Source: a virus
Virus record (IMG/VR): IMGVR_UViG_3300030103_005573
Location: 1-64,000 of that record
Direction: 5' to 3' (one strand)
DNA: 64,000 bases
In this document: positions 3,058 through 49,902 of the stretch, in pieces
Numbering within the stretch: position 1 is the stretch's first letter
Layout of the letters: the number at the start of each line of letters is the position of its first letter
The notes under the pieces: generated by a model
The model's input: the letters and a program-made list of their open reading frames with translations, nothing else
What the model was told of the DNA's origin: nothing
The model's database searches: none
Program-made: the position numbers and the translations under genes

Positions 3058-3070
3058 TTTTACCTCCCAA

Positions 3071-19557: not shown

Positions 19558-19561
19558 TTAA

Positions 19562-19568
19562 TAATTAG
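19562..19568 (-). promoter_or_regulatory. Putative late promoter motif CTAATTA
   Basis: GACTAATTA-TTAA-ATG; no SD. Confidence 0.6.
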
Positions 19569-19582
19569 TCTCTTTTAATCAA

Positions 19583-32887: not shown

Positions 32888-32894
32888 AAATTAG

Positions 32895-34124: not shown

Positions 34125-34126
34125 TG

Positions 34127-35657: not shown

Positions 35658-36344
35658 TTAAGAAATTTCTCCTTCATTCCACTTCTTTTTAAAGGTTCGG
35701 TATCTTTCCCGCATTTTGTTAAGGGCGCTCACAATTTGTTTTGTATTGAGACCCGTAATCTCTCGCATATACAAATATACTGCTTTCTTATTGAAAATTT
35801 CTATTTGCTCTATGTTTTCCATTAAAGTTATAACAGCGTTAAGTACCTTCTCTTCGTTAGGTTTAAGTGTGAGGTTTTGCCAACTGTTGATTTCGCTGAG
35901 AAGTGAAAGCCAAAATTCCTTATCCTCGATATCAGTCATCAGATCGCCCTCAACTCCTGAGACTGCTTCTACCTCTCTAACCATTTCGTCATAATTAACT
36001 TCACGGCGGTTCTTCTTTGTTTGTTTTTTAGCTTTGTGCGTAAACCAATTCTTTGTTACAACCGAAAAGTAGGAGAATGCTTTTTTATTTTTAGAGGGGT
36101 CAAATTTCCCTAGAATAGTTGTAAGCCAAATTTTACAGTCATCCTTGTGGTACTCAATATTCTCAAGGGACGTAAATTTATAAGTGTAAACAATTTTATC
36201 CACAAGCTCATCAAAAGCAGGCTGTATATGTTCGACATAGAGCTTAGTTCTCATTGACAAACTGTCTGTATTACAATAATCTACTATTGCCTTTTCTGTT
36301 ATTTCTGTAAAATAATAATTATTCTTTTTCTTTTTTCTAGGCAT
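35658..36344 (-). CDS. Phage sigma factor, T4 gp55-like (late transcription)
   Basis: KFDPSKNKKAFSYFSVVTKNWF matches the sigma region-2 FDP.K...F.YF motif of gp55-like factors; C-terminal HTH-like KKAVYLYMREITGL.TKQI. Confidence 0.75.
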   Translation of the reverse strand: MPRKKKKNNYYFTEITEKAIVDYCNTDSLSMRTKLYVEHIQPAFDELVDKIVYTYKFTSLENIEYHKDDCKIWLTTILGKFDPSKNKKAFSYFSVVTKNWFTHKAKKQTKKNRREVNYDEMVREVEAVSGVEGDLMTDIEDKEFWLSLLSEINSWQNLTLKPNEEKVLNAVITLMENIEQIEIFNKKAVYLYMREITGLNTKQIVSALNKMRERYRTFKKKWNEGEIS

Positions 36345-36645
36345 TCTCAGTCTCTACTTCTTTCCTGGTAAGCTCTTCGTTGGCTTTAAGATATTCCTGA
36401 ACCTCATCAGCGAGGTTCCCTGTATGCATCAAAAGCTTTTCTAATGTGGAGTCACCATAAAAAAGTTCACGACCATAGACATCAGTTAAATGTGTTTCGT
36501 ATTCAGCAATTGACTCCAGAACAACTCTTGTATCTTCGTTTGTCATCTCTAAATAATTTAGTAGTTTTCTAGTGTACCAAACAAAAATAACATTAATAGC
36601 CATAGAAGATATCAAAGCAATTGTTAAAAGTGTTGTAGTAATCAT
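36337..36645 (-). CDS. Small membrane-anchored hypothetical protein
   Basis: N-terminal hydrophobic helix LLTIALISSMAINVIFVWY, then an acidic helical tail. Confidence 0.7.
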   Translation of the reverse strand: MITTTLLTIALISSMAINVIFVWYTRKLLNYLEMTNEDTRVVLESIAEYETHLTDVYGRELFYGDSTLEKLLMHTGNLADEVQEYLKANEELTRKEVETENA

Positions 36646-36905
36646 TTTTTCCTATAAATTTTATTAGATTGTTTTTTCTTGTAATCTTCTAACTCTTGCT
36701 TTCCCTCTTGGATTGCTTTTTCTACTTGACTTCCTGTTTTCTCTTTGGTATTATAACATTTTTTTGTTACTTGTAAAACGTTAGATAAATTTTTCTGTAA
36801 ATTCTGTGAATTACATTTAGTACAGGTTATACCCTTAGCGCTATAAGAGTGTCTTATCTTTACTTGCTTTTTACAATTTAAGCAATCATAAACGTAGAGA
36901 GGCAT
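36642..36905 (-). CDS. FmdB-family zinc-ribbon protein
   Basis: MPLYVYDCLNC...CTKC, i.e. MPxYxYxCxxC...CxxC. Confidence 0.8.
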   Translation of the reverse strand: MPLYVYDCLNCKKQVKIRHSYSAKGITCTKCNSQNLQKNLSNVLQVTKKCYNTKEKTGSQVEKAIQEGKQELEDYKKKQSNKIYRKK

Positions 36906-37069
36906 TACTCAGAGGCTGTCTTAAATGAGGGCGGATTAGTTACAACAATTTCTTCATCCTGGATCTCTAAGTTCCAGTCTGACAAAAGCTCTGTGATATC
37001 TGTTTGTTCTGTTAGGCACTTTTGTAATGTCATTAAAAGTGCGCCGACTGCTTGGTTTGAAAATTTCAT
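36905..37069 (-). CDS. Small hypothetical protein (54 aa, below the ORF-track cutoff)
   Basis: MKFSNQAVGALLMTLQKCLTEQTDITELLSDWNLEIQDEEIVVTNPPSFKTASE*; SD GGAG; TAATG overlap with the next gene; fills the gap exactly. Confidence 0.75.
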   Translation of the reverse strand: MKFSNQAVGALLMTLQKCLTEQTDITELLSDWNLEIQDEEIVVTNPPSFKTASE

Positions 37070-37070
37070 T

Positions 37071-38045
37071 TTATTTCTCCTTTATAATTTTATTAGTTAT
37101 GGAACATATCTCTAATATGTCTTTTTCTTCAAGATAGGGATCTACTGGTAGATATCCTACATTTTGCGATTTTTTATAAGATAAAAATTCTTTATAATTA
37201 ATATCTTTCTTAAACAAAGGCATCATTGACATGGGTTTAAAGCTATGACGGGCAGCATACCCACAAGAATTTAAAGTTGATACTATTTTATCTTTCACTG
37301 GTGAGAAAAAATCATATACCCACACTGCATCTCTATCTGGCATTTTAATGCTATCAGGCAAGAGGGTGTTATATATTTCCTCATTTACTCTTCTCTTATT
37401 ATGATTATCATGATAATTTAAAAGGCTGTCAATTGCTAGAGATGCTTGAGAGTTTGTCATACGATAATTAAAACCTATTTGTTTATGGTAATAATTATGA
37501 TCTTCTCCAAAAGACATGCTCTTCATATCCCTTACCACTCTTAGAAGATCAGTATCATCCGAGGCAACAATACCGCCTTCTTCAGCACAGATTATTTTGT
37601 TTCTGTAAAGAGAGAAACACCCAATATCAAAAGACCCAACAGCTTTACCATCCCAATAAGCACCCTGAGCTTCGCAAGCATCCTCAATAACTCTTAAGTT
37701 GTGTTTTTCGGCTATTTCTATTACTCGATTCATATCGACAACTCGACCATATATGTGAGTAACCATAAGAACTTTTGTATTTTCGTCTATAACTTCCTCT
37801 ACCTTATCTAGGTCAATTAATAGTCGGTCATCACAGTCAACAAATACTGGTGTAAGGCGAGCATAGTGTACAGCTAAACCAGAAGCATACATGGTAAACT
37901 CTGGAACTATTACTTTACTACCCTCTGGGAGTCTTAGTGCTTCTAACGCAACATGTAAAGCTGCTGTCCCTGTATTAACAGCGACTGCTGACTCAACACC
38001 CAAATGTTCTGCATACTTTTGTTCTAAAATCTCAAACTTTTGCAT
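37071..38045 (-). CDS. DegT/DnrJ/EryC1/StrS PLP-dependent NDP-sugar aminotransferase
   Basis: NTGTAALHVAL, PVFVD, THIYG, IEDACEAQG, FSLYRNKII..EEGG (PLP lysine) and GFNYRMT. Confidence 0.93.
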   Translation of the reverse strand: MQKFEILEQKYAEHLGVESAVAVNTGTAALHVALEALRLPEGSKVIVPEFTMYASGLAVHYARLTPVFVDCDDRLLIDLDKVEEVIDENTKVLMVTHIYGRVVDMNRVIEIAEKHNLRVIEDACEAQGAYWDGKAVGSFDIGCFSLYRNKIICAEEGGIVASDDTDLLRVVRDMKSMSFGEDHNYYHKQIGFNYRMTNSQASLAIDSLLNYHDNHNKRRVNEEIYNTLLPDSIKMPDRDAVWVYDFFSPVKDKIVSTLNSCGYAARHSFKPMSMMPLFKKDINYKEFLSYKKSQNVGYLPVDPYLEEKDILEICSITNKIIKEK

Positions 38046-38054
38046 TACAAATTC

Positions 38055-38558
38055 TCATCGTCTAATGATTTCATAATCACTACTATAACTTGGCCAGATT
38101 ATAGCACCGTTGGCAATACGGAGGAACTCTTTTTCTATAGTGTCCCAACGCCCTTCTTCTATTAGTCCGTTCTCCTCTGATTCTAAAATTCCATATTTGA
38201 CGCAAGAACAAACAATCCAATCAAAACTATTATCTTCGAATGGCAAGTCTTGTAGTGTTGATTCTACAAGTTTTATCCCAGGGTATAATTCCCTTCCATA
38301 TTCGATAAGGGCTGGTGTTTGATCTACACCGGTATATTCGTTTTTAACAAATTGAGATAACCAACCAAATCCACACCCAGCGTCAAGTAGTTTATCTTCT
38401 TCTTTGACCTCTTGATTAATTACAGATAGTCTGCTATTTATTATTCTTTTCCATTCTGTAGGTCCCGACCTATAAACAGAGTAATAGGGATCTCCAACTG
38501 ATTTTGCTTGCGCAACTCTAGTTACCCAAAACTCTTTGTTATCATATAGGTTTTTCAT
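38055..38558 (-). CDS. Class I SAM-dependent methyltransferase
   Basis: LLDAGCGFG, YTGVD and LPFEDNSFDWIV. Confidence 0.88.
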   Translation of the reverse strand: MKNLYDNKEFWVTRVAQAKSVGDPYYSVYRSGPTEWKRIINSRLSVINQEVKEEDKLLDAGCGFGWLSQFVKNEYTGVDQTPALIEYGRELYPGIKLVESTLQDLPFEDNSFDWIVCSCVKYGILESEENGLIEEGRWDTIEKEFLRIANGAIIWPSYSSDYEIIRR

Positions 38559-39142
38559 CTATTTGACCTGGTTCCTGTAAATATAAAAGTTCTATCATGT
38601 GGAAGGAATTGTATATTTAAGTTATCAATATATTCGCCATATCGATCTGATATTTGTTCTTGTGATACAAACCATCTAACATGACCAGGGTCATCAAAGA
38701 TTGGAACTGTAAATACTAAATTAACACCCTCTGGAATAGCTTGAAGAAACTCAACATCTTTATGTACATGTTCTAAAAATTCTGTGGATATTACTGTAGT
38801 ATCTTTAGGATTTGTTTCTATAAAGCTACCAACATCCATTGCTGTGATATCATTAACAAAAAATGAAGCGCTAGGTGCAGTTGCGTTTCTTTGCTGTGCT
38901 TTTTCAATAGCTACAGTGGAAAAATCGATACCGTTATATGTTCCTTCAAATCCATCACGGTACATAACTTGACACACATGCCCAGGACCACATCCAAAAT
39001 CATATATGGTGCTACCCAATGTTGACATAGCAGTATGTGCAATAGTTTCCCAAAGATTTCCTACTGGTGGGTTTGGATCATTGTATGCAACTGATGTTGC
39101 AAAAATGTCATCATAATATTTAGCTGGCTGTTCTATACCCAT
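38555..39142 (-). CDS. Class I SAM-dependent methyltransferase
   Basis: YDFGCGPG, YNGIDFS and EFLEHV. The start was moved to ATG 39142 after SD GAGG to avoid a long overlap. Confidence 0.88.
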   Translation of the reverse strand: MGIEQPAKYYDDIFATSVAYNDPNPPVGNLWETIAHTAMSTLGSTIYDFGCGPGHVCQVMYRDGFEGTYNGIDFSTVAIEKAQQRNATAPSASFFVNDITAMDVGSFIETNPKDTTVISTEFLEHVHKDVEFLQAIPEGVNLVFTVPIFDDPGHVRWFVSQEQISDRYGEYIDNLNIQFLPHDRTFIFTGTRSNR

Positions 39143-39152
39143 TTTATTACCT

Positions 39153-40106
39153 CTACCAATCCCAATGGTTATTATTTTGTTTAAAATATTCAATAGTCCT
39201 CTTTAGCGACTCCTCAAGATTAACCTCTGGTCGGGACTCAATTACATTATAAAGTTTTGTATTATCTGATTGTAAGTGCCAAATCTCCCACGGGCGGACA
39301 CGAGCCTGTTCAGTAATAATATTAACTTTTTTATGACCCATTAATTTACCAATCAAATGAGCTAAGTCATAAATTTGTATACCATCTTCACTGCCCATAT
39401 TGTAAACCTCACCAAATTCTCCGAACTCTAGCAACTCAACTGCCATTCTAACTGCGTCACCAGCATACTGAAAATCTCTAAAAGAATTATTGCCTAGGTT
39501 TACATTGTGACTTCTGTCAAGTTGTTCAATGATCTCTGGAATAACATATTCATGTGTTTCTCTTTCTCCAACACAATTAAACTGACGCATAGCAATCGCT
39601 GGGACTTTTGCCTCTCTCCAGCGGACCTGTACAAGACCATCAGCAGCTAACTTTGATACACCATAAGTTGAGTGAGGAGTTACAGGATCAGTTTCTTTAA
39701 TCTTACCCTTCATGTCACCATAAATTTCAGCAGACGAAACTTGTAGCAAACCTTGGATATTAGCTTTTTGACAAGCATTTAAGACCTTCAAGACTGCCGT
39801 TGCATTAATATCAAAAAAGTGCATTGGTCTCTCAAAACACTCAGGGATATAAGGTTCGGCAGCATAATTAAAGACATACTTTATTTTGTTATCCAGAAAA
39901 ATCTTTGCTAGTTCATTCTCATCATCACGAATGTCAAACCACATAAAATCTGCTTTGTGATGAAGATGCTTTTTAAGCCCTGTTATCAAATTATCAAGAA
40001 CAAGAACTTTGCAATTCCTATCTTCTATCAAATGGTCAACAAGGTGGGAACCTAAAAAGCCAGCACCACCAATAACACACACGTTCTCATCTTTAATAGT
40101 TCTCAT
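39153..40106 (-). CDS. NAD-dependent NDP-sugar epimerase/4,6-dehydratase (extended SDR)
   Basis: GGAGFLG, SSAEIYG, YGVSK, RQFN.VG, RDFQY and VYNMGS. Confidence 0.92.
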   Translation of the reverse strand: MRTIKDENVCVIGGAGFLGSHLVDHLIEDRNCKVLVLDNLITGLKKHLHHKADFMWFDIRDDENELAKIFLDNKIKYVFNYAAEPYIPECFERPMHFFDINATAVLKVLNACQKANIQGLLQVSSAEIYGDMKGKIKETDPVTPHSTYGVSKLAADGLVQVRWREAKVPAIAMRQFNCVGERETHEYVIPEIIEQLDRSHNVNLGNNSFRDFQYAGDAVRMAVELLEFGEFGEVYNMGSEDGIQIYDLAHLIGKLMGHKKVNIITEQARVRPWEIWHLQSDNTKLYNVIESRPEVNLEESLKRTIEYFKQNNNHWDW

Positions 40107-40110
40107 AATT

Positions 40111-40734
40111 TTACTCCTCTATAAAATTAATATAAGTCTTTTTTCCTTTATTGTTAATATAATAAGAAGATTCTTTACCAGGAAAATGTAAAGCTCTAAT
40201 ATATTTTGTTAAATTTTTTACTCTATCTAAATCATTTCTGTAATAAGTTTTGGCATTTTCCGAGGGTTGTGGTACGGCAACAAAGTTTTCCTCAAGTAGA
40301 TCGACAAACCAATCTTTAAACATCTTGAAAATTAAAACATTACCTCTTTCATTAAGAGAATAAGCTGTATCAGTTTCAGATACAATAAATTCTCTTATTT
40401 CTATTATATCACCAGTATCAATCCCTTTATCAATCAAATGAAGAGTAATACCTGATTTCTTATCCTCGTTAATGAGTGTCCAACTATATGCTCCTGCTCC
40501 TCTGTATTCCGGTAAAATTCCAGGATGAAAATTGTAGCATTTTTTACCTTCCATAACGGAAGATGTTAATATAGTATCATATAGGACTGATATTACAATA
40601 CTCGCATCGTTTATCTCATCTACTAGCTCATATCCTGTAGGGATATTTTTACTAGCCCACTCTTTACAAATATTTCCTACATACCTTGATGTGGCTATAC
40701 AAACTTTCTTACGAGAGTTACAAGCTTCACTCAC
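40111..40734 (-). CDS. Formyltransferase (likely NDP-aminosugar N-formyltransferase)
   Basis: NFHPGILPEYRG and GITLHLIDKGIDTGDII give the N/H/D catalytic set of the 10-formyl-THF transferase family. It is short, lacks the Fmt C-terminal domain and sits inside a sugar cluster. Confidence 0.85.
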   Translation of the reverse strand: MSEACNSRKKVCIATSRYVGNICKEWASKNIPTGYELVDEINDASIVISVLYDTILTSSVMEGKKCYNFHPGILPEYRGAGAYSWTLINEDKKSGITLHLIDKGIDTGDIIEIREFIVSETDTAYSLNERGNVLIFKMFKDWFVDLLEENFVAVPQPSENAKTYYRNDLDRVKNLTKYIRALHFPGKESSYYINNKGKKTYINFIEE

Positions 40735-41587
40735 TTTTTAGCTCCAGTAACCTATTATACATTTCTGTAACCATGTTGTTTAGTTTATACTGGTTTGTAA
40801 ATTCTATACACTCGTTTCTATCGAGTTTAGGGGTATTGTCCCAAGTTTCTTTTAATGTTTTTTTAAAATCCTCATAACTATTGTCATTAAAATATATTGC
40901 TCGATCACCAAAATAATCTCTCGCACCCATATACTTTGAGTCACTAACCATAACAGGCTTTCCTAATCTGTGAGCTTCAATCAGTGTAAGTCCACCCGTT
41001 GATGCTTCGTGATATTCTGTAACGAGAAAACTACACTCGGCAATCACTTTGTGAAAATCTTGTTCCGATAATTTATGCAGTGATTCATACAAAGGAATTT
41101 CTAGTTCTGAACATGCCTGCTTTAGCCATCCTATATTTTTATCTTTATGATAGTATCGCATAGCCTGGTAAACATATCTACCATCTTTTATTTCCCCGTC
41201 ATAATCAAAAAGTCTTGCGTATGATTTTATTATTCTACATTTGTGTCCAAGACCTAGAAATTCTTCAGTGCGAAGATTAACCTCTTCAGAGGGAGTCCAA
41301 ATTTCTAAAGATTTATTTAATAACTCTCCGTAACCAGGCCAGTTATAACCAGCATTACTTTGCATATCCACCCAGCCATAAAAGTCCCAGTTATAATTTA
41401 TCATAGGTACCTGGGGGTTGTGCTCGTTGATTGATTTAATCTTTGGTAATTGAGAATGTGATAATCCAATCAAAAAATCACAGTCCTCTGTACAATGATT
41501 CTTTATCACTTCTACACCAAACTCTCGAAACTCATCAGCAATTTTATGAGAAAATTCATCTGGAGGTAGTACAAAACTAATCTTCAT
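40727..41587 (-). CDS. Glycosyltransferase (GT-B, GT4-like)
   Basis: EASTGGLTLIEAHRLGKPVMVSD is an E-x-GL..IEA..G.PV..SD-like motif. Confidence 0.75.
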   Translation of the reverse strand: MKISFVLPPDEFSHKIADEFREFGVEVIKNHCTEDCDFLIGLSHSQLPKIKSINEHNPQVPMINYNWDFYGWVDMQSNAGYNWPGYGELLNKSLEIWTPSEEVNLRTEEFLGLGHKCRIIKSYARLFDYDGEIKDGRYVYQAMRYYHKDKNIGWLKQACSELEIPLYESLHKLSEQDFHKVIAECSFLVTEYHEASTGGLTLIEAHRLGKPVMVSDSKYMGARDYFGDRAIYFNDNSYEDFKKTLKETWDNTPKLDRNECIEFTNQYKLNNMVTEMYNRLLELKSE

Positions 41588-42642
41588 TGTGATAGACCCT
41601 CTTTAATAACTTGTATGTATTTGGGCAGCATATTTTCCCAAGAATGTTGCTCTCCCCATAGTTTACCTTGATTTGAGTATTTTGTTATATCTTTTTTATA
41701 CCATAAGTCTATAGTATTTGCTATATTAATAGGGTCAATGGTTGCCCTATGGAAAGGAACATTTACAATTCTATCCTCAACATATCCTGATACTGGTATA
41801 AGAGGTTCGTTTGGGAGCCACAAAGTATTAGGAAACCTATCTGTTGTCATAACCAACATACCGCTGGCGTATGCCTCTTGTAGAGGTAATGACAATCCAT
41901 TAAATTTCTCTGGAAATAGAAAAACGTCACCTTCTAGGAACAGCTTATCATACTCAACTGTTCCAATACGAACATCTACTCTGCTATCACTTACATTAAT
42001 ATCTAATGGTTTCTGAGAGCGGATAATCATTTCTATCGGAGATTTTATGTGCTGTAATGATTCTATAACCTCTCTTGTCCCATTTCTATCATTTGTCCCT
42101 CCATTGCCAGCATTATAAACAAAAGTATTAGCCTGCGTTCTTTGTTTCCACGAAACATCAACCGGGATCGTTACTTGTCTTATGCTTGCCTCAGGATACA
42201 TTTTTCTGTACACTTCGTAATCTAATTTAGAAGGACAAAGATACAAATCTGCTTCCATAGGGTATGGAGTGCATTCATACATTGGCATGAGCACTGTTTT
42301 AACGCCTAATCTTTTAGCGTCTTTTAAAATATCATACCCGACTGTTCTACCATCGCTTGTCTGAATGGTAAAATAAAAAGGTATCTCAAATACAAGCAAA
42401 ACATCTATTTTTGATAAAAAATTAGTAATTACAAGTCGCTCATCAACTCCTGGGTGTTTAGTTTGTGCAAAAGAATCAGAGGGGTTACCTATGAATGAAG
42501 AATGGTTAAACCACTCTGGGTGATTTTTTAACGTTCCATGCTCTTTTATTAAAACCTCATGTACGAGCCCACTATCATAAAAAGACTTTGCAAGAACACC
42601 CAACCCTTGATTAGTTGATAAAACTATAGAACCTATTTTCAT
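41584..42642 (-). CDS. Glycosyltransferase (GT-B, GT4-like)
   Basis: DVFLFPEKFNGLSLPLQEAYASGMLVMTTD. Confidence 0.8.
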   Translation of the reverse strand: MKIGSIVLSTNQGLGVLAKSFYDSGLVHEVLIKEHGTLKNHPEWFNHSSFIGNPSDSFAQTKHPGVDERLVITNFLSKIDVLLVFEIPFYFTIQTSDGRTVGYDILKDAKRLGVKTVLMPMYECTPYPMEADLYLCPSKLDYEVYRKMYPEASIRQVTIPVDVSWKQRTQANTFVYNAGNGGTNDRNGTREVIESLQHIKSPIEMIIRSQKPLDINVSDSRVDVRIGTVEYDKLFLEGDVFLFPEKFNGLSLPLQEAYASGMLVMTTDRFPNTLWLPNEPLIPVSGYVEDRIVNVPFHRATIDPINIANTIDLWYKKDITKYSNQGKLWGEQHSWENMLPKYIQVIKEGLSQ

Positions 42643-42647
42643 TTTTA

Positions 42648-44468
42648 TTACCTATCAATTATATCTACAATGTACGATACACGATTGTCTAATGTGTGGT
42701 TTTCCTTTGTATGCTTAATACCATTTAAGATTATTTCCTCTCTATCTTTTGGGTTATCTAAAAAGAAATCAATCTTTTGTTTGAGGATATTAAAATTATT
42801 TCGCTCGAAAGTAATAAAATGTTGACCATCTGTATAATGATCTTCTATACCCTCAACATATGGGTGAATAATTAAACCACCACGACCAATTGTTTCATAA
42901 AGGCGATTTGACCAAAGGTTTTTAGATTCTACACAATCACCAATAATAACTTTAGCGGATCTAATCAATTCTGTTAATTTATCTTCTCTATACTCATCAG
43001 TATTGTTTTTCCCTGCCCAGAAAAACTTATCTCCATAGGTATTTTGTAGAAAATTAAGAAGTTTGTATCGATTCTGACCATGAAAATTCATGTCTAAGCC
43101 GCCCACAAATAAGACATCAATACTCTTCTTAGAATTTTTTACCTGCCTCTCTGTTACGCAGTTTGCTGGAAATATGGCATCCTTTAGCGGATAATGATTA
43201 ATACCACTTTCAGCAAATAAGTGCTGGTTTCCACCATCTGTAGAGAAAACATAATCTGCCTGAAACATCGGATGTTTTTGTCTTACTTCGTTTTCTCTTG
43301 GGGTGCCAAAATATAAATCAGGTACCCAGCAGACTGTCTTTATACAGTTTTTCTTTAGAGTGTCCATAAATTGACTCTGATTAGGTATTCTTAACTTGGC
43401 ATAAAAAACATAATCAGGGTTAGATCTGATCAATATATCTTGATTATTTAAATCCTCGGATAGATTAAAAGTGTCTTCATCAAATCTTAAAACTTCATAT
43501 CCACTTTTTTCTAATGATAGGGCTTTTCCTTCTTCATCATAAAGTTTTCTAAATTTTCCTATAAATGCTATTTTCTTTTTATAGTTTTTATCAATAGGCT
43601 TCTCAATGGTATCGACAAAAAGATCTATCGCCGATTTGATTCGTTTGCGTGTCTCTTTGATTAATTCATTTCCATTTAAAGAGATATGTTTCTCGCTTGC
43701 TGCTCCAATAAGTGATGAAATCGTCTTAACTTGACAATTCATCATCTTAGCCTCAACTATTAAACGGCAGAATGTTTCTAAAACTTTTGGAATAAATACC
43801 AAAGTCTCGTATGTTGCCATGGTTTTTAAGAAATCATTTGGTGGAAGTCCCCCGACAAGATCAAAATCTATCCCCTTTGATTGACAATAAGAAACACCCG
43901 CAGTCATATTCTTAGTAGGATTATCAGATTTAACAACCATAGTGCCATTGGTCTTATTAGTTGTACTTAATTGCTCAATCATATCTAACCGTGAATCAGA
44001 CCACAGACTGGTACCAATACTAAGCACATTATTAATGTTGAGAGTTCTCTCCATAACTTCTTTGCAGATTTTACTAAGACATATTACTGATTTTGCTTTT
44101 GCATAAAATCTTGAGTTAATTACATTATCAGTTGGTATTATAACCTCATTAATTGTTACTTGATTTTCACAAAAAATAGATGGGTCTCTTGTATCTAGAA
44201 ATTTATGATCATGTTCATATATTACATACTCGATATTATCGGACATATATTTTTTACAATCATAATTTAAACCAACAAAATTAGATACGATGTAAAGGAT
44301 TTTATTATTTTCTCTCAAGAACTCTAACGTTATTTTAGAGCTACTAATTTTACTAATGTTATAGCCCCTGTCTGATAACTTATTGATCAAGACATCATCA
44401 TTGAGTTCTGCTCCTCCAACAACCTGATCGCTAAAGAAGTCTGATATGAAAAACAATTCTTTATTCAT
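42648..44468 (-). CDS. Two-domain glycosyltransferase (GT-B-like N-half plus CgeB-like C-half)
   Basis: N-half VGGAE...ETFCRLIVEAKMMNC; C-half DVLFVG...R..LL..L...WSNRLYETIGRGG...HF.TF. Confidence 0.75.
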   Translation of the reverse strand: MNKELFFISDFFSDQVVGGAELNDDVLINKLSDRGYNISKISSSKITLEFLRENNKILYIVSNFVGLNYDCKKYMSDNIEYVIYEHDHKFLDTRDPSIFCENQVTINEVIIPTDNVINSRFYAKAKSVICLSKICKEVMERTLNINNVLSIGTSLWSDSRLDMIEQLSTTNKTNGTMVVKSDNPTKNMTAGVSYCQSKGIDFDLVGGLPPNDFLKTMATYETLVFIPKVLETFCRLIVEAKMMNCQVKTISSLIGAASEKHISLNGNELIKETRKRIKSAIDLFVDTIEKPIDKNYKKKIAFIGKFRKLYDEEGKALSLEKSGYEVLRFDEDTFNLSEDLNNQDILIRSNPDYVFYAKLRIPNQSQFMDTLKKNCIKTVCWVPDLYFGTPRENEVRQKHPMFQADYVFSTDGGNQHLFAESGINHYPLKDAIFPANCVTERQVKNSKKSIDVLFVGGLDMNFHGQNRYKLLNFLQNTYGDKFFWAGKNNTDEYREDKLTELIRSAKVIIGDCVESKNLWSNRLYETIGRGGLIIHPYVEGIEDHYTDGQHFITFERNNFNILKQKIDFFLDNPKDREEIILNGIKHTKENHTLDNRVSYIVDIIDR

Positions 44469-45742
44469 AGCGTGTCTAATTCCGATATATCATTATAAGT
44501 TTTGGTTTTTATTGTACCCATATGTTCCTGGTGGAATTCTTTATACTTTTGTTTAATTTTTTCAATGTCATATTTATCCAACAAATGTGTAGACAAAGAA
44601 TGAGCTTCCTCCAAAAACGAACCTTTGTTATTACTAATAAATCTTAAGTTCTTTTTAAATGAGGTTTCGTCTGGGTACGCCCACTCGCAACCCTCTACAA
44701 TAAGTCCTGGCATTATGTGTTGTGATTGGACCTTGTCTAATTTATAATCAACCTTTAGAAAATGACTTTGTAATTTAACTTTCCCGGTCTTTGATTTGAC
44801 AGGTGCTCGAAGAAAATCTAAATGACCAGACCAATTTGTTGCAATTACTGGTATTTTGTTACACGCAGCATTAAATATTGGGATACCAAACCCTTCCCCG
44901 TGAGTTGTCGTAACATAACAATCAATATATTCTGGATTATACAAAGAAGCCATTTCTTGCTCGGAAAAATTACCATGAACAAAATATATCTTACACTTCC
45001 TGTTCGGGCTAATTGTATCCAACAATCCTTTTATTATTGTTTTACTCGAATGAAAATCCAAAGTACTATTATTTTGCATATGAGCTTTGACTACTAATCC
45101 AACTTTATCATTATCTTTAAACTCTTCAACAAACCACTTAAGCATATTTTCGAAGTTTTTCCTTGGAGCTAATTGGAGAACTGTAAGAAAATTAAATTCT
45201 GTGGTTATCTCCATATCCTTATAAATATCAACCTTCTCTACGGTGGAATCATAACCAAATGGAATTACAGTTATTGGAGTAGATATCCCAACTCCATTTT
45301 GATCTTTTGTTTTCTTGAGATTTTTTTTAGCATGCTCAGATACAACAAGAATATTCTTCATCAGATTACATTTAGAAACCCATTCTGGTGGGGCAAAGGT
45401 AGTTTCCAACGCTGCTGTTACACCTATATCATTTTCTGACATTTGCTGAAATTCATTAGGTGGTCTAACTTGATATGTACAGTCAAACAATCCTGCGATG
45501 TTAACCCTTCCTTCTTGGTCAACTCTGCTTTGAAATAAATTATTTGTCTTATTAATAAGATTCTTGTACTTATTGTAATACTTTAAACTATGAGTTGCAG
45601 CAGCCCACTGGGTATCTTGAACATACACATCAAATACATCTTGCATCTCTACAAAAGAATCAAGTAAAGTACGTGCATGCTCACTGTAACCTGAGATATT
45701 ACAAACAGGTCCTACTATTAGTACTCTTGGTTTATTATTCAT
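44465..45742 (-). CDS. Glycosyltransferase family 4
   Basis: SGYSEHAR, RKNFE and DCYVTTTHGEGFGIPIFNAACNKIPVIATNWSGHLDF. Confidence 0.88.
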   Translation of the reverse strand: MNNKPRVLIVGPVCNISGYSEHARTLLDSFVEMQDVFDVYVQDTQWAAATHSLKYYNKYKNLINKTNNLFQSRVDQEGRVNIAGLFDCTYQVRPPNEFQQMSENDIGVTAALETTFAPPEWVSKCNLMKNILVVSEHAKKNLKKTKDQNGVGISTPITVIPFGYDSTVEKVDIYKDMEITTEFNFLTVLQLAPRKNFENMLKWFVEEFKDNDKVGLVVKAHMQNNSTLDFHSSKTIIKGLLDTISPNRKCKIYFVHGNFSEQEMASLYNPEYIDCYVTTTHGEGFGIPIFNAACNKIPVIATNWSGHLDFLRAPVKSKTGKVKLQSHFLKVDYKLDKVQSQHIMPGLIVEGCEWAYPDETSFKKNLRFISNNKGSFLEEAHSLSTHLLDKYDIEKIKQKYKEFHQEHMGTIKTKTYNDISELDTL

Positions 45743-46998
45743 AGTTTTTCTACCCTAATATTTTTATAATTTTTTCGTGTTTCAAATGAGCCATATTTGT
45801 CATGTATATTGGTCATTAGGTTCACCCATCGCTCATTGAACATATCAAAATTATAGTTATCCTGAACATGTTGTTTGCCTAATTTTCCTAACTCTTGTAG
45901 CTCTTCGTCTGATTTATTATACATCTCCAATAAAGCGTTTAGAAAATCTTCTTTAGAAATACGGTCCTCGTAAATATATGGAACCTGCTGTGATCCAATA
46001 ACTGCTTTAGACGCAGGTTCGATACCTACACCAAACCATCGTTCGCCGTCTGTCACCTGCTCTTGTAATCCACCCGTCATAGTAACAATAATTGGAGTCT
46101 CACAAGATAATGACTCTAGGGTTGCCAACCCAAAACCTTCAGCATCAGAAACGTTAACTGTACAGTCGGCAATATTGTATAATAAACTCATTTGCTCTGC
46201 TGGGAGTTTGGCTTTTGATATTACAACCTCTCCCTCTTTAAACCCTAATTCATTGACAAGGTATTCGAGAGGTTGACCGTGAGGGTCATTTGGATCGGTA
46301 TGCATAAATAAACATACTTTATCTCTATCAACACTTTCCATTTCCAGGAATTCACTAAACCAATACACAAGGGAACCAGACTGCTTTCGTCTTGCATTTC
46401 TATTATTCCAGAAAAATACAAACCTATCTTTCAAAGGAGGATTATTTTCTAGTATTTTATCTATTTCGTCTTGTGGTTTCTTAGAAAAGATGTTACTATT
46501 AACTGCATGAGGAATATAATGCTCCTCAACCTCAGGTGCTACAGTACGAACAATATCGCTCGTAACCTTTGAGATACTAGCGATAACATCATTAGATTCA
46601 TAATACCTTTGATTATACTTTGGATAAGGATAGTTATCCCAGACATGATAATATATCATCGGGATATTTTCTCGGATTGAATCATCAACAGACCACAGCC
46701 ATTCATAAAAACGAGGATCTGTCATAAAATATAGAATATCTGGCTTTCTTTCATTGATAAAAGTTTTTACAATCTTAGCATCGCCATAAGAATCTACTGG
46801 GAAGATCTCCCAAGTACCAGGAAATCCGTCAACTCTTTTAGGAGTATAGTCTTGATGCTTAAGCGCCCCACCTAATGAAATAACATTAAACTTCCCACTA
46901 CGGAGAAGTGCCTCTATAACATACCTTGTTTGGGTACCAACCCCAGACGGCAACAGTGGATGATCACTAATTGTTAGAACGGTAATTTTTTTATCCAA
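45739..46998 (-). CDS. Glycosyltransferase family 4
   Basis: SDHP..PSGVG, IPHAV, NRNARRK and LYNIADCTVNVSDAEGFGLATLESLSCETPII. Confidence 0.9.
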   Translation of the reverse strand: MDKKITVLTISDHPLLPSGVGTQTRYVIEALLRSGKFNVISLGGALKHQDYTPKRVDGFPGTWEIFPVDSYGDAKIVKTFINERKPDILYFMTDPRFYEWLWSVDDSIRENIPMIYYHVWDNYPYPKYNQRYYESNDVIASISKVTSDIVRTVAPEVEEHYIPHAVNSNIFSKKPQDEIDKILENNPPLKDRFVFFWNNRNARRKQSGSLVYWFSEFLEMESVDRDKVCLFMHTDPNDPHGQPLEYLVNELGFKEGEVVISKAKLPAEQMSLLYNIADCTVNVSDAEGFGLATLESLSCETPIIVTMTGGLQEQVTDGERWFGVGIEPASKAVIGSQQVPYIYEDRISKEDFLNALLEMYNKSDEELQELGKLGKQHVQDNYNFDMFNERWVNLMTNIHDKYGSFETRKNYKNIRVEKL

Positions 46999-47007
46999 TT
47001 TTGTACC

Positions 47008-47847
47008 TCATTTACAATGTTCGGTCCTGTAAAATTCACAGACACCTGGACGGTGTTTGCAACTCGTACAAGAATTTCTGTTTTTAATATATCTCTCTTT
47101 TGTTATATTGTAAAGGGCAGTTGTTAAAGATTTTAATGCATCTGTTGTTCTTTTTTTAGCCGCAGTGATCCTAACAAACTCAACCTTTTTACCAGGCTTC
47201 GCAGTCCGCTTTAATAAAACGAAGTGACAGTCAATATCTTTTGGATCTACTTCATATTTTTGAGCATAAAAATGTTTATACATAACAAGCTGGTAGGCCA
47301 TGACTTTATCGCTCTTTTTTTCACGCCGCCAACCCCAAGAACAAGTCTTCCAGTCAATCAGGTGAACTTTTTCATCCTTTTTAGAATAAACAACAAGATC
47401 AATAAACCCTTTAAATTTTTTCTCAGCATCCTTAAATTCTGTAATAGGTTCGTACAAAAACTCTTCAGCAGCCAATACGTGCCAATCCTCGCCAAGCTTC
47501 CCAAATTTTTCTACTAGAGAGCGGTAAAGGTCGGGAATAATCTCAATACCGTGAGACATCCACAAAGGCAGGTCAAACTCATTAGCCGCCCTCTGTTGTT
47601 CACCAGCCGGCAGGGCTTTCAGTTCTTTTACAAACTGTTCCTTGAGTAGGGTAGTGATCTTTTCCTGAGACCTGTATTGCTCAGTCTTTGTGAGAGTTTC
47701 CTCACACAGGGTATGTAAAGCTTTTCCAAAGGCAGTGTAGATATTACCCTCAAACTTATTGATCTTGTCAATGTAGGTAAGTTTATGATAATGCGGGCAA
47801 ATGAGCCAATTCTTCCACTCTGAATAAGAGATGTGTTTTCCAGCCAA
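47008..47847 (-). CDS. PD-(D/E)XK nuclease, Cas4/RecB/AddB-like, with probable Fe-S cysteines
   Basis: ISYS....ICP, FG.ALH, AEE, GFIDLV, LIDWKT, YQL..Y and C-terminal CTSC.....C. Confidence 0.85.
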   Translation of the reverse strand: MAGKHISYSEWKNWLICPHYHKLTYIDKINKFEGNIYTAFGKALHTLCEETLTKTEQYRSQEKITTLLKEQFVKELKALPAGEQQRAANEFDLPLWMSHGIEIIPDLYRSLVEKFGKLGEDWHVLAAEEFLYEPITEFKDAEKKFKGFIDLVVYSKKDEKVHLIDWKTCSWGWRREKKSDKVMAYQLVMYKHFYAQKYEVDPKDIDCHFVLLKRTAKPGKKVEFVRITAAKKRTTDALKSLTTALYNITKERYIKNRNSCTSCKHRPGVCEFYRTEHCK

Positions 47848-47862
47848 AGTTTTGTCACTTTC

Positions 47863-48519
47863 TTAGTTGCTTATTTCTTCTATTTTATTATAAACTTCCG
47901 GGCTTATTCTTTTTACTTTTTCTTTATTCCCTAGAAAGTACTGCTCAAATCCTGTTGCAAAATATTCACGGAGAGACATGGATGCATAAGGGCGGACAAA
48001 TATACCAGAAGTAACCAACTTTAGCATATTCTTTCCAACTCGTTTATATAGAAATTTGTCAAAATCCTGATCATATTTTAGATTTGAGAAATCATATTCC
48101 TTTGTCCAATAACCCTCTGATCTTAGTTCGAATTCTAATTGTGCTCTTTTTTTTAAGAATTCTTTCTTAATTTTTTGATCGCCATAAATTTCTTCTGGGT
48201 AGAGCATCTCAGCATGATGAGCGAATTCATGAATAATATCGTCAATTAAATCTTCGGCATTATCTTGCTCGTGTGTAATATAAAAAACACCATCTTTATA
48301 AATAGCATTAGCGTCACGGTCGTCAAATACCTTCTGGTGTCCTATCTCGACTCCCTTTAGGTCCTGGAAGAATTTAGGAGGAATTACATCCTCAATGGAT
48401 CGAAAAACTGCTTGTCCATCTACATTGTTTGTTAATTCGTCTTTCTGTACAACAGGAACGTTACCAAACCTAAAGTGTCGTGTAGTATCTTTAGTTTTCT
48501 CAAAAATGTAATCTTTCAC
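47863..48519 (-). CDS. Putative zincin metallopeptidase (HExxH)
   Basis: IIHEFAHH plus downstream YASMSLREYFATGFE and ..SPEVY..I, an anthrax-LF/Pro-Pro-endopeptidase-like arrangement. Confidence 0.7.
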   Translation of the reverse strand: MKDYIFEKTKDTTRHFRFGNVPVVQKDELTNNVDGQAVFRSIEDVIPPKFFQDLKGVEIGHQKVFDDRDANAIYKDGVFYITHEQDNAEDLIDDIIHEFAHHAEMLYPEEIYGDQKIKKEFLKKRAQLEFELRSEGYWTKEYDFSNLKYDQDFDKFLYKRVGKNMLKLVTSGIFVRPYASMSLREYFATGFEQYFLGNKEKVKRISPEVYNKIEEISN

Positions 48520-49847: not shown

Positions 49848-49854
49848 TAATTAG
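49848..49854 (-). promoter_or_regulatory. Putative late promoter motif CTAATTA heading the phoH-to-glycan operon
   Basis: AACTAATTAT just past the tmRNA terminator, upstream of SD GGGGA and ATG 49820. Confidence 0.6.
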
Positions 49855-49879
49855 TTCACAGATTAAACTTAAAGGTAAT

Positions 49880-49902
49880 AAAAAAGCCGCCCGAAGGCGG
49901 CT
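49880..49902 (-). terminator. Rho-independent terminator of ssrA
   Basis: AGCCGCC-TTCG-GGCGGCT followed by a T run; cUUCGg tetraloop; abuts the CCA end. Confidence 0.9.

What the first reader, a model, noticed from the sequence alone, without database searches (positions are those of the whole stretch)
37071..46998. Complete phage-encoded pathway for a formylated/methylated amino-dideoxy-sugar glycan next to the baseplate genes
Seen: ten contiguous co-oriented genes, several with overlapping start/stop codons: 5 glycosyltransferases (one two-domain), a formyltransferase, an SDR dehydratase, 2 SAM methyltransferases and a DegT aminotransferase. Known: the series 4,6-dehydratase, DegT aminotransferase, N-formyltransferase makes NDP-4-formamido-4,6-dideoxyhexoses (N-formyl-perosamine/viosamine type) in O-antigens, and giant eukaryotic viruses use similar clusters to glycosylate their fibrils. 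The cluster has no flippase, polymerase or undecaprenyl-P transferase, and none of its enzymes has an obvious TM segment, so it does not look like a serotype-conversion cassette. No base hydroxymethylase for DNA hypermodification is visible in this window. Inference: these soluble enzymes build a multi-residue, capped glycan on virion proteins in the cytoplasm, in a transcript running from a late motif (49848) into the sigma gene beside the baseplate block.
Basis: partly seen in the sequence, partly recalled or inferred. Interest (0 to 1): 0.9.

Follow-up and report, generated by a model that had tools for sequence, protein, structure and literature searches.

The report
Swappable sugar-chain gene island in phage
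An uncultured marine tailed phage carries ten back-to-back genes for soluble enzymes that make a rare N-formylated amino sugar and build a sugar chain; this is one cassette of a gene island shared by hundreds of related phages, and it most likely decorates the phage's own tail proteins, but no chemistry shows this yet.

Summary
Window 37071-46998 (minus strand) holds ten tightly packed genes: six GT-B glycosyltransferase modules in five genes, a sugar N-formyltransferase with an intact Asn-His-Asp triad, an SDR 4,6-dehydratase-like enzyme, a perosamine-synthase-like DegT aminotransferase, and two SAM methyltransferases. None has a membrane segment.

It is not unique. At least 76 of 80 fetched IMG/VR loci keep PhoH, a 218-aa protein, a PD-(D/E)XK nuclease and three fixed glycosyltransferases, followed by a swappable cassette. 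The window carries the formyl-amino-sugar type; many relatives carry a heptose type. In near relatives the island ends at a conserved 54-aa ORF, a Zn-ribbon gene, a small membrane protein, a sigma-like gene and the baseplate block. Flavobacterium phage immuto is a cultured analogue.

DNA glycosylation is unlikely: two relatives rated complete or 94% complete lack ThyA-type and C5-methylase genes. Virion glycosylation is the leading but unproven reading. The tripeptide [ST]-G-S is 4-8 fold enriched only in distal tail proteins here, in two relatives and in immuto, but not in T4. Modification of the host envelope is not excluded.

The scan has noted this island type before on other DNA, and comparable islands are described in cyano- and pelagimyophages.

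The parts
45739..46998 (-). Core glycosyltransferase 1 (GT4, 419 aa), first gene of the island
   Evidence: Pfam Glycos_transf_1 2.4e-12 and GT4-conflict 1.5e-6. Homologue in 76 of 80 loci at 53-61% identity, always after the PD-(D/E)XK gene. 31% identical to the immuto glycosyltransferase.
44465..45742 (-). Core glycosyltransferase 2 (GT4, 425 aa)
   Evidence: Pfam Glycos_transf_1 2.9e-7. Homologue in 76 of 80 loci at about 36-42% identity. 28% identical to the second immuto GT.
43593..44468 (-). Core glycosyltransferase 3: N-terminal compact GT-B module (residues 1-292) of the 606-aa fusion protein, with the YEHDHK motif
   Evidence: AF2 pLDDT 95.7. GT-B/GT4 fold with Z 18.7-16.5. Stand-alone protein of about 283 aa in 46 loci and fused to a GT2 domain in 27.
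42648..43592 (-). Variable glycosyltransferase: C-terminal GT-B module of the 606-aa fusion
   Evidence: Pfam Glyco_trans_1_2 1.4e-15 at residues 478-601. A separate gene of 316-322 aa in L005 and L046.
41584..42642 (-). Probable GT-B glycosyltransferase (352 aa), variable
   Evidence: Pfam Glyco_trans_1_4 E 0.0028, below cut-off. Conserved FPEKFNGLSLPLQEAYASG motif. Atlas feature score 0.99 to viral GT1/GT4 clusters. Found in only 5 loci. PDB profile search and hhalign were not significant.
40727..41587 (-). Compact GT-B glycosyltransferase (286 aa) that travels with the formyltransferase
   Evidence: AF2 pLDDT 89. Foldseek E 1e-9, TM 0.6-0.76 to SenB, SdgB, GlgM and MshA. Immediately upstream of FT in L005, L011, L017 and L036.
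40111..40734 (-). Sugar N-formyltransferase (207 aa)
   Evidence: Formyl_trans_N 5.9e-17 plus N_formyltrans_C. The ten best PDB hits are all sugar N-formyltransferases (FdtF, QdtF, WbkC, PseJ, dTDP-Qui4N FT). Asn68, His70 and Asp106 align with their catalytic triad.
39153..40106 (-). SDR, probable NDP-hexose 4,6-dehydratase (317 aa)
   Evidence: TIGR01181 1.3e-44 and LegB 1.3e-42, both below cut-off. SSAEIYG and Y148-x3-K152 motifs. PDB neighbours include both GalE-type epimerases and RmlB. 75-82% identical across 9 loci.
38555..39193 (-). SAM methyltransferase 2 (212 aa), unique to this contig
   Evidence: Methyltransf_31, _25 and _23. No homologue in the 80 loci. No PDB hit.
38055..38558 (-). 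SAM methyltransferase 1 (167 aa)
   Evidence: Methyltransf_11 and _25. Homologues in 7 loci with the same cassette.
37071..38045 (-). DegT-type sugar aminotransferase (324 aa), closest to GDP-perosamine synthase
   Evidence: DegT 4.2e-71. PDB best hits 3bn1 and 3dr7, perosamine synthetase, E 5e-52. NCBIfam best model LegC.
36905..37069 (-). Conserved 54-aa ORF that marks the fixed right-hand border of the island
   Evidence: TAAaATG and TAATG junctions. Homologues at 42-65% identity in 11 relatives, just before the Zn-ribbon gene.
35658..36905 (-). Conserved downstream genes: Zn-ribbon (87 aa), small N-terminally anchored membrane protein (102 aa), sigma-like protein (228 aa)
   Evidence: Zn_ribbon_8. 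TM segment with KD 2.05. Region-2-like motif KFDPxKGxKAFSYFSVITKNWF. Sigma70_r2 E 0.017 in 2 of 8 homologues. Same order in G001, G003 and L002-L005.
47008..49820 (-). Conserved upstream genes: PhoH (434 aa), 218-aa protein, PD-(D/E)XK nuclease (279 aa)
   Evidence: phrog_2765 6e-110 and PDDEXK_1 8.7e-18. Present in 66-70 of 80 loci in this order.
49848..49902 (-). Terminator of the upstream tmRNA, then a CTAATTA motif 27 nt before the PhoH start: likely 5' limit of the transcription unit
   Evidence: Terminator-like stem of 7 pairs (6 GC) followed by a T run. Sequence read. Motif census.

Best explanation
The ten genes are the variable cassette plus the fixed anchor of a phage glycan-assembly island.

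Shown:
- Three glycosyltransferases are kept across a large lineage of marine myovirus-like phages: the 419-aa and 425-aa GT4 proteins and the N-terminal GT-B module of the 606-aa protein.
- The genes after them are swapped between relatives.

Inferred:
- In this phage the cassette takes a host NDP-hexose, most likely a GDP-linked one. It makes the 4-keto-6-deoxy sugar (SDR), then the 4-amino sugar (DegT) and N-formylates it (formyltransferase).
- The 286-aa GT-B enzyme that always accompanies the formyltransferase adds this sugar.
- The remaining GT modules extend the chain, and two SAM methyltransferases cap or decorate it.
- All steps take place in the cytoplasm.
- The acceptor is most likely the phage's own distal tail and fibre proteins, possibly at Ser/Thr of an [S/T]-G-S motif that follows beta-strands. 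The glycan would then coat the host-recognition end of the virion.
For: Enzyme identities.

Lineage-wide architecture, with fixed GTs and a swappable part:
- 238 IMG/VR matches to the GT606 family.
- Synteny in 76 of 80 fetched loci.
- Alternative cassettes with HAD phosphatase, PfkB kinase, cytidylyltransferase-like, cupin, transaldolase, UDP-GlcNAc 2-epimerase and GNAT genes.
- GTa286-FT-DH-AT recurs as one unit.

Position: the island sits between the PhoH/nuclease genes and the 54-aa ORF/Zn-ribbon/sigma-like/baseplate genes in this contig, in G001 (25 kb) and in G003 (16 kb). A gp25 baseplate wedge gene lies at 26560-26964.

No membrane machinery:
- No TM segment in the cluster.
- No ORF with 3 or more hydrophobic segments among 850 downstream ORFs of 76 loci.
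- In the complete relative, only a tape-measure-like protein is polytopic.

Candidate acceptor motif [ST]GS:
- 41 copies against 7.7 expected in six tail-region proteins of this contig.
- TGS and SGS are the two most over-represented of all tripeptides in those six proteins (z 8.7 and 6.8), while SGT, GSS and SSG are not enriched.
- The enrichment recurs in their homologues in G001 and G003, with some positions conserved.
- It recurs in eight consecutive tail, fibre and spike proteins of the cultured phage immuto (60 against 12.7 expected). Most of these have no BLAST similarity to the window's proteins.
- 23 T4 baseplate, tail, head and fibre proteins show none (8 against 12.6 expected).

Precedents: mycobacteriophage capsid and tail-tube glycans (as described in PMC12619734); clade-specific glycan clusters for Megavirinae fibrils (PMC10117803, PMC8456856).
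Against: - No chemistry exists; the acceptor is inferred only.
- [ST]GS could be a structural turn motif of this lineage's fibre folds. The six proteins were picked by their counts, and the negative control is a single phage.
- In immuto the island is about 20 kb from the baseplate block, so adjacency is not universal.
- The operon also carries PhoH, a nuclease and a putative sigma factor, so late co-expression with structural genes is not shown.
- Soluble GT4/GT2 enzymes are equally typical of lipid-linked O-antigen and capsule synthesis. The literature reads comparable islands as host-surface modification (PMC7029224, PMC12801897).
- The SDR could be an epimerase: its closest solved structures include GalE-type enzymes.
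- The nucleotide carrier is uncertain. The aminotransferase points to GDP sugars; the SDR's best model is the dTDP-glucose enzyme.
Confidence: 0.45

Rival explanations
1. Host envelope remodelling. The soluble phage enzymes make the rare sugar and extend a host lipid-linked (undecaprenyl-PP) or LPS-core acceptor at the inner face of the membrane. Host flippase, polymerase and ligase export the product. This changes the O-antigen, capsule or S-layer glycan of the infected cell, for example to block superinfection or to stop progeny adsorbing to debris.
For: - GT4/GT2 enzymes and N-formyl-amino-dideoxyhexoses are typical of O-antigens. The best structural relatives of the aminotransferase and formyltransferase include the perosamine enzymes PerA and WbkC.
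- The cassette swapping resembles that of serotype loci.
- This is the standard reading of similar islands in pelagimyophages and cyanomyophages (PMC7029224; PMC12801897).
- Peripheral GTs need no TM segment, so one search does not argue against it.
Against: - Three GTs are fixed across a lineage in which PhoH identity to the window ranges from 76% down to about 47%. Fixed acceptor-proximal enzymes are easier to reconcile with a phage-encoded acceptor than with varied host glycolipids (inference).
- No priming, flippase, polymerase or ligase gene is found in the complete relative G003.
- The island sits next to tail genes in close relatives.
- The [ST]GS enrichment in tail proteins has no role in this model.
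Confidence: 0.27
2. DNA hypermodification. The glycosyltransferases add a mono- to oligosaccharide to a hydroxylated base of the phage DNA, protecting it from restriction, as in T4, RB69 and the metavirome clusters of Pyle et al.
For: - The island directly follows a PD-(D/E)XK nuclease and PhoH in 66-70 of 80 loci.
- The compact GT-B module also resembles T4 alpha-glucosyltransferase among many other GT-B enzymes.
- DNA glycans with hexose, HexNAc and heptose, up to trisaccharides, are known (bioRxiv 10.1101/2023.12.21.572611; PMC13326640).
Against: - All known routes need a ThyA-family hydroxymethylase or hydroxylase, or a C5-methyltransferase plus a TET/JBP dioxygenase.
- None is found in this contig, in G001, or in the complete (G003) and 94%-complete (G004) relatives. 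The TET/JBP search had a silent control, so that one result is weaker.
- Six GT modules plus amino-sugar tailoring exceed any DNA glycan described in those papers.
Confidence: 0.06
3. Another cytoplasmic acceptor. The enzymes would glycosylate a host protein or a small molecule, for example a BshA/MshA-like thiol or a storage or compatible solute, to reprogramme metabolism. Alternatively the glycan is made free as a decoy.
For: The closest solved folds and families of the core GTs include small-molecule enzymes: BshA, MshA, SenB, sucrose-phosphate synthase and GlgM.
Against: - Six GT modules with capping methyltransferases point to an oligosaccharide rather than a single transfer.
- No transporter or matching metabolic genes lie nearby.
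- The cassette variability is hard to explain for a metabolite.
Confidence: 0.12

Closest known systems
'LPS / cell-wall modification' glycan gene islands of large marine myoviruses: the pelagimyophage host recognition cluster (PMC7029224) and cyanomyophages P-SSM2, S-SCSM1 and S-SCSM2R (PMC12801897)
   Same: Runs of soluble GTs plus nucleotide-sugar enzymes (heptose, deoxy and amino sugars) in a hypervariable region next to tail genes of big marine phages. No export genes. Target unproven.
   Different: This is a different phage lineage: there is no near DNA match and no tblastn hit of the 2186-aa tail protein in the phage collection. The only cultured relatives are immuto, Mel-JY01 and RM378, at 27-31% identity. 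Here three specific GT-B enzymes are fixed beside PhoH and a PD-(D/E)XK nuclease. An N-formyltransferase cassette was not mentioned in the one paper checked for that term.
Flavobacterium phage vB_FspM_immuto (MW353176) glycan locus, genes 87-101
   Same: PD-(D/E)XK nuclease followed by two homologous GT4 genes (31% and 28% identity), then aminotransferases, a methyltransferase, an epimerase and further GTs. It shares the gp6-like baseplate protein and the sigma-like protein. Its tail proteins show the same [ST]GS enrichment.
   Different: It has no formyltransferase; it has a PglD-like acetyltransferase and a GT2 instead. The island is not next to the baseplate genes. No homologue of the third core GT was detected by tblastn in the two stretches fetched (37-112 kb).
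Mycobacteriophage virion glycosylation (Freeman et al. 2023, cited through PMC12619734)
   Same: Phage-encoded soluble GTs placed near structural genes. Glycans sit on virion proteins.
   Different: That system uses one to a few GTs and no sugar-synthesis pathway. Its glycans sit at the C-termini of capsid and tail-tube subunits, and it is experimentally shown. Here there are six GT modules plus a sugar pathway, the putative acceptors are distal tail proteins, and nothing is shown.
Giant-virus glycan clusters (Megavirinae fibrils, PMC10117803 and PMC8456856; chlorovirus capsid glycans, PMC9614988)
   Same: Virus-encoded, membrane-independent synthesis of bacterial-type rare amino sugars. Clusters differ by clade. 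Methyl capping occurs.
   Different: Those viruses infect eukaryotes and are unrelated. Their acceptors are known (fibril or capsid proteins). Their enzymes are not orthologous to these.
Bacterial N-formyl amino-sugar pathways: GDP-perosamine PerA/WbkC of Brucella and Caulobacter, and dTDP-Qui4NFo and Fuc3NFo enzymes
   Same: The same three reaction types. The aminotransferase's best solved relative is perosamine synthase (E 5e-52). The formyltransferase has the Asn-His-Asp triad and the C-terminal dimerisation domain.
   Different: The first enzyme is not Gmd-like (gmd model E 2.6e-15, against 1.3e-44 for RmlB and 1.3e-42 for LegB). All scores are far below the equivalog cut-offs, so the exact sugar and nucleotide are open.

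Membership tests
Sugar N-formyltransferase (WlaRD / FdtF / WbkC / VioF type) | Formyl_trans_N core with catalytic Asn-x-His and a downstream Asp | tested here: met
   Asn68, His70 and Asp106 align to the NIH...IDTG residues of FdtF (5uij). The His-to-Asp spacing is 36 residues.
Sugar N-formyltransferase (WlaRD / FdtF / WbkC / VioF type) | Closer to sugar N-formyltransferases than to Fmt, PurN or ArnA | tested here: met
   The ten best PDB hits (E 1e-14 to 1e-12) are all sugar N-formyltransferases; Fmt comes at 5e-11 and PurN at 5e-8. A Pfam N_formyltrans_C hit at 5.4e-5 is just below its cut-off. The margin is modest.
Sugar N-formyltransferase (WlaRD / FdtF / WbkC / VioF type) | Formylation of an NDP-amino sugar with N10-formyl-THF | not testable with these tools
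   This needs an enzyme assay.
NDP-hexose 4,6-dehydratase (RmlB / Gmd / LegB) | Extended SDR with YxxxK, plus a Glu after the Ser/Thr of the S/T-x-E motif | tested here: met
   SSAEIYG (Glu present; the RmlB Asp is replaced by Ala) and Y148-GVS-K152.
NDP-hexose 4,6-dehydratase (RmlB / Gmd / LegB) | Score above the equivalog cut-off of a dehydratase model | tested here: not met
   TIGR01181 scores 152.6 bits against a cut-off of 365. LegB scores 146 against 475. The closest solved structures include GalE-type 4-epimerases. Its function as a dehydratase is inferred from context (FT-DH-AT linkage).
DegT/DnrJ/EryC1 sugar aminotransferase | Full-length match to the PLP fold-type I DegT family | tested here: met
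   PF01041 at 240 bits, covering residues 5-315. Perosamine synthetase E 5e-52. The N-terminus is about 30 residues shorter than in solved enzymes, as in the phage homologues.
GT-B (GT4-like) glycosyltransferases | Two Rossmann-like halves; C-terminal nucleotide-sugar-binding motif | tested here: met
   Met for the 419-aa and 425-aa proteins and the C-terminal module of the 606-aa protein by Pfam. Met for the N-terminal module of the 606-aa protein and the 286-aa protein by predicted fold. For the 352-aa protein the evidence is only the motif and feature neighbours, so it is inconclusive for that one.
Phage virion glycosylation system (mycobacteriophage type) | Glycan demonstrated on virion proteins | not testable with these tools
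   No chemistry is available. There is only indirect evidence from the [ST]GS enrichment in tail proteins.
Phage virion glycosylation system (mycobacteriophage type) | GT genes embedded in or adjacent to the structural module | tested here: inconclusive
   Adjacent to the baseplate block here and in G001, G003 and L002-L005. About 20 kb away in immuto. PhoH and a nuclease lie on the other side.
Phage DNA glycosylation (T4, RB69 and TET-dependent clusters) | Enzyme that creates a hydroxylated pyrimidine: a ThyA homologue, or a C5-MTase plus TET/JBP | tested here: not met
   No PF00303 or PF00145 hit in G000, G001, G003 (100% complete) or G004 (94% complete). PF12851 also found nothing, but its control was silent.
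Serotype-converting / O-antigen modification cassette | Membrane components: GtrA/B/C, Wzx, Wzy, or a priming phosphoglycosyl transferase | tested here: not met
   No TM protein in the cluster. No ORF with 3 or more hydrophobic segments in 850 flanking ORFs. Only a tape-measure-like polytopic protein in complete G003. Use of host components cannot be excluded.

The most novel reading that the evidence does not exclude
A whole lineage of marine myovirus-like phages, with more than 200 contigs in IMG/VR and the cultured Flavobacterium phage immuto as a distant analogue, has a cytoplasmic protein-glycosylation system of its own. Fixed GT-B enzymes (three in the IMG/VR lineage, two of them detected in immuto) would recognise an [S/T]-G-S sequon on distal tail, fibre and spike proteins. 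A serotype-like swappable cassette, here a methylated N-formyl-4-amino-4,6-dideoxyhexose glycan, would set the outer sugars. The host-recognition end of the virion would then carry a variable glycan coat.
Probability: 0.35. Interest if true: 0.8.

Novelty: new member of a known kind. Interest (0 to 1): 0.5.

Why it matters
Large ocean phages spend 5-15% of their genomes on sugar-building islands, and nobody has shown what those sugars are attached to. This contig gives a compact, cleanly delimited example: about 10 kb with fixed borders, three fixed transferases, and one recognisable sugar pathway with its own transferase.

The comparative work yields two concrete handles:
- a candidate acceptor motif, [ST]GS, found only in distal tail proteins of island-bearing phages;
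- a cultured phage-host pair (Flavobacterium phage immuto) that shares two of the three fixed transferases and the motif.

If the glycan is on the tail, it would add a sequon-directed, phage-encoded glycosylation system to tailed phages. It would bear on host range, adsorption, grazing and particle stickiness in the sea. If instead it remodels the host surface, it is a lytic-phage form of serotype conversion. Either outcome would settle a long-standing annotation guess.

Tried and rejected
Searches that gave nothing:
- Near-identity DNA search and tblastn of the 2186-aa tail protein against 50,697 phage records: no match. Single-protein scans of IMG/VR found nothing; an alignment-based scan was needed.
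- PHROGs and Pfam gave nothing for most structural proteins.
- PDB sequence-profile searches for the 286-aa, 352-aa and sigma-like proteins: nothing significant.
- hhalign of the 286-aa and 352-aa families against the core GT4 family: weak (probability 25% and 1.4%).
- PDB searches for the two methyltransferases gave only generic class-I hits or none, so their substrates cannot be inferred.

Tool problems:
- ARAGORN missed the tmRNA that Rfam finds.
- The Freeman 2023 paper is not held; it is cited only through another paper.

Lines of reasoning dropped:
- Host identification through the tmRNA tag (ANNNAELALAA) gave one irrelevant hit in 185,579 genomes. The host is unknown.
- Fold comparison cannot tell the acceptor. 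The GT-B modules match protein-, lipid-, DNA-, polymer- and small-molecule-glycosylating GT4 enzymes about equally.
- The 9-segment hydrophobic proteins of G001 and G003 were considered as GT-C, flippase or polymerase candidates and rejected. They are Ala/Gly-rich, have no Pfam hit, lie among large genes without Pfam or BLAST annotation that may be tail genes (not tested), and look like tape measures.

Not run:
- Complex prediction, because enzyme-substrate pairs are poor candidates for it.
- RNA or read mapping.

Full report
**What is there**

The window is the first 64 kb of a single 78,150-bp viral contig. CheckV rates it 41% complete, so the genome is probably about 190 kb. Nearly all genes lie on the minus strand.

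Pfam and NCBIfam identify:
- a DegT aminotransferase,
- two class-I SAM methyltransferases,
- an extended SDR,
- a formyltransferase that carries the C-terminal domain typical of sugar N-formyltransferases,
- two clear GT4 genes,
- a Glyco_trans_1_2 domain in the C-terminal half of a 606-aa protein.

Two further 'glycosyltransferases' (286 and 352 aa) score below the Pfam cut-offs.
- I folded the 286-aa protein with its 10 homologues (pLDDT 89). It is a compact GT-B enzyme (Foldseek E 1e-9; TM up to 0.76).
- The 352-aa protein has the classical GT-B C-terminal motif, and its nearest language-model neighbours are viral GT1/GT4 clusters. Sequence-profile tests failed.

The N-terminal 292 residues of the 606-aa protein fold with pLDDT 95.7 into a second complete GT-B module (Z 18.7-16.5 to many GT4 enzymes). 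The cluster therefore holds six GT modules in five genes. None of the ten proteins has a hydrophobic stretch that could span a membrane.

**The sugar pathway**

- *Formyltransferase.* Its ten best solved relatives are all sugar N-formyltransferases (FdtF, QdtF, WbkC, PseJ, dTDP-Qui4N formyltransferase). Asn68, His70 and Asp106 align with their catalytic triad.
- *Aminotransferase.* Its best solved relative is GDP-perosamine synthase (E 5e-52), and its best NCBIfam model is LegC. Both act on GDP-linked sugars.
- *SDR.* It has the SSAEIYG and YxxxK motifs. It scores best with dTDP-glucose 4,6-dehydratase and LegB, but far below their cut-offs, and its closest solved structures include GalE-type epimerases. 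Its role as a 4,6-dehydratase is therefore an inference. The inference is strengthened by linkage: wherever the sequence extends far enough, other contigs carry the string 286-aa GT, formyltransferase, SDR, aminotransferase as one unit.

No nucleotidyltransferase is present, so the pathway starts from a host NDP-hexose. My best guess is an NDP- (probably GDP-) 4-formamido-4,6-dideoxyhexose. The substrates of the two methyltransferases cannot be inferred.

**It is one cassette of a widespread island**

The 606-aa protein has 27 full-length relatives in metagenomes, including Tara Oceans. An alignment-based scan of IMG/VR found 238 related loci. Comparing the 80 loci that were fetched with all proteins of this contig shows a fixed backbone: trypsin-like protease, PhoH, a 218-aa protein, a PD-(D/E)XK nuclease, the 419-aa GT4 (53-61% identical), the 425-aa GT4, and the compact GT-B module.

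That compact module takes three forms:
- a stand-alone gene of about 283 aa in 46 loci,
- fused to a GT2 domain in 27 loci,
- fused to the second GT-B module only here and in three relatives (it is split in L005 and L046).

What follows the backbone is variable. The window's set occurs in few loci: formyltransferase in 8, the 352-aa GT in 5, methyltransferase 1 in 7, and methyltransferase 2 in none. Many others carry a heptose-type set (HAD phosphatase, PfkB kinase, cytidylyltransferase-like, cupin, transaldolase), a UDP-GlcNAc 2-epimerase, or GNAT acetyltransferases.

In the closest relatives, and in the two long relatives G001 and G003, the island always ends at the same genes: a 54-aa ORF (found here at 36905-37069, filling what looked like a gap), a Zn-ribbon protein, a small membrane-anchored protein, a sigma-like protein, and then the baseplate block. 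A gp25 gene lies at 26560-26964. The island measures 10 kb here, 16 kb in G003 and 25 kb in G001.

The only cultured relatives are distant. Flavobacterium phage immuto has the nuclease, both GT4 genes and its own tailoring cassette. Microcystis phage Mel-JY01 and Rhodothermus phage RM378 are weaker matches.

**Transcription unit**

Upstream of PhoH lies a one-piece tmRNA gene (49902-50225, Rfam 98.5 bits) with a strong terminator. The motif family is real: 11 of 56 minus-strand copies are intergenic against about 2 expected, and six lie exactly 4 nt before structural-gene starts. The PhoH copy, however, is 27 nt from its ATG. The unit it would drive also encodes the sigma-like protein, whose own assignment is weak. 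Co-transcription from PhoH to the sigma-like gene is therefore plausible, since there is no gap and no convincing internal terminator. Late timing is not shown.

**What is glycosylated?**

*DNA.* Every known route to glycosylated DNA needs a ThyA-family hydroxylase or hydroxymethylase, or a C5-methyltransferase with a TET/JBP dioxygenase (PMC13326640; bioRxiv 10.1101/2023.12.21.572611). None was found in this contig, in G001, or in the relatives rated 100% (G003) and 94% (G004) complete. The TET search had a silent control. I rate this reading at about 6%.

This is also how similar islands in pelagimyophages and cyanomyophages are read (PMC7029224; PMC12801897). What I can add is that the absence is general. 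No ORF with three or more hydrophobic segments occurs among 850 ORFs downstream of the core GTs in 76 loci. The only polytopic proteins in G001 and G003 are Ala/Gly-rich and tape-measure-like.

*Virion proteins.* I tested a lead from a neighbouring note of this scan.
- The tripeptide [ST]-G-S occurs 41 times against 7.7 expected in six proteins of the tail region and is not enriched elsewhere in the contig.
- TGS and SGS are the two most over-represented of all tripeptides in those six proteins, while SGT, GSS and SSG are not. The motif usually follows a hydrophobic strand.
- The enrichment recurs in the homologous proteins of G001 and G003, with some positions conserved and others turning over.
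- In the cultured phage immuto it recurs in eight consecutive tail, fibre and spike proteins (60 against 12.7 expected). Most of them have no detectable similarity to the window's proteins.
- Twenty-three T4 baseplate, tail, head and fibre proteins show none (8 against 12.6 expected).

This is circumstantial. The motif may be structural, the six proteins were chosen by their counts, and the control is one phage. Still, it is what a conserved acceptor-recognising enzyme would predict, and only this model uses it. I put virion (tail) glycosylation at about 45%, host-envelope remodelling at about 27%, another cytoplasmic acceptor at about 12%, and DNA at about 6%.

**Comparison and novelty**

As a gene island this belongs to a known kind: glycan clusters of large marine phages whose target is unknown. 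The same lineage-wide architecture (fixed GTs plus a swappable part) has already been noted several times by this scan on other DNA. I did not use those notes as evidence, but my independent synteny analysis agrees with them.

New here are:
- the formyl-amino-sugar cassette with its dedicated GT;
- the exact borders of the island;
- the fusion and split history of the third core GT;
- the extension of the [ST]GS test to a cultured phage, with a negative control.

Membership in 'virion glycosylation systems' cannot be claimed without chemistry. I file it as a new member of a known kind, interest 0.5. The sequon-directed tail-glycosylation reading is the more novel case (probability about 0.35).

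Noticed in passing
window 49902-50225 (-), terminator 49885-49902: A phage-encoded one-piece tmRNA (Rfam RF00023, 98.5 bits against a gathering score of 47). The predicted tag is ANNNAELALAA with a double stop, and a strong intrinsic terminator follows. ARAGORN did not report it. A genome-wide scan for the same tag gave no useful host lead.
   Followed up: partly
window 36905-37069 (-): A 54-aa ORF, translationally coupled on both sides (TAAaATG, TAATG), fills the apparent gap after the aminotransferase. It is 42-65% identical in 11 relatives, always just before the Zn-ribbon gene. Its function is unknown.
   Followed up: partly
window 1882-4132, 12997-24744 and 53695-54600; G001, G003; immuto (L103) record positions 84135-100775: [ST]-G-S is 4-8 fold enriched only in distal tail, fibre and spike proteins of island-bearing phages, including the cultured Flavobacterium phage immuto. 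It is not enriched in T4 structural proteins. The motif usually follows a hydrophobic beta-strand.
   Followed up: yes
window 35658-36344 (-): The 228-aa protein has a sigma-70 region-2-like motif (KFDPxKGxKAFSYFSVITKNWF) and a basic C-terminal helix. It is conserved at 47-72% identity in relatives and at 32% in immuto (gene 152). Pfam Sigma70_r2 reaches only E 0.017 in 2 of 8 homologues, and a PDB profile search found nothing.
   Followed up: partly
window 36337-36645 (-): A small 102-aa protein with a single N-terminal TM segment (KD 2.05) sits between the Zn-ribbon and sigma-like genes and is conserved in 9 loci. It is the only membrane protein near the island.
   Followed up: no
L001 5975-11419 (contig 69975-75419): PrkA, YeaH-like and SpoVR-like genes. 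PrkA is 85% identical in G001. Its nearest matches in cultured phages are Thermus phages and huge uncultured phages, at about 32-34% identity.
   Followed up: partly
G001 31632-34664; G003 171362-174013: Proteins of 883-1010 aa with nine Ala/Gly-rich hydrophobic segments and no Pfam hit, lying among large unannotated genes. They are probably tape-measure proteins, not glycan export enzymes.
   Followed up: partly
window 51202-53169 (-): A 655-aa protein with a weak cytidylyltransferase-like (HIGH-type nucleotidyltransferase) C-terminal domain (phrog_395 8e-7). Part of it is 29% identical to the immuto gene annotated NadR/NMN adenylyltransferase. It is probably NAD-related rather than a sugar nucleotidyltransferase.
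   Followed up: partly
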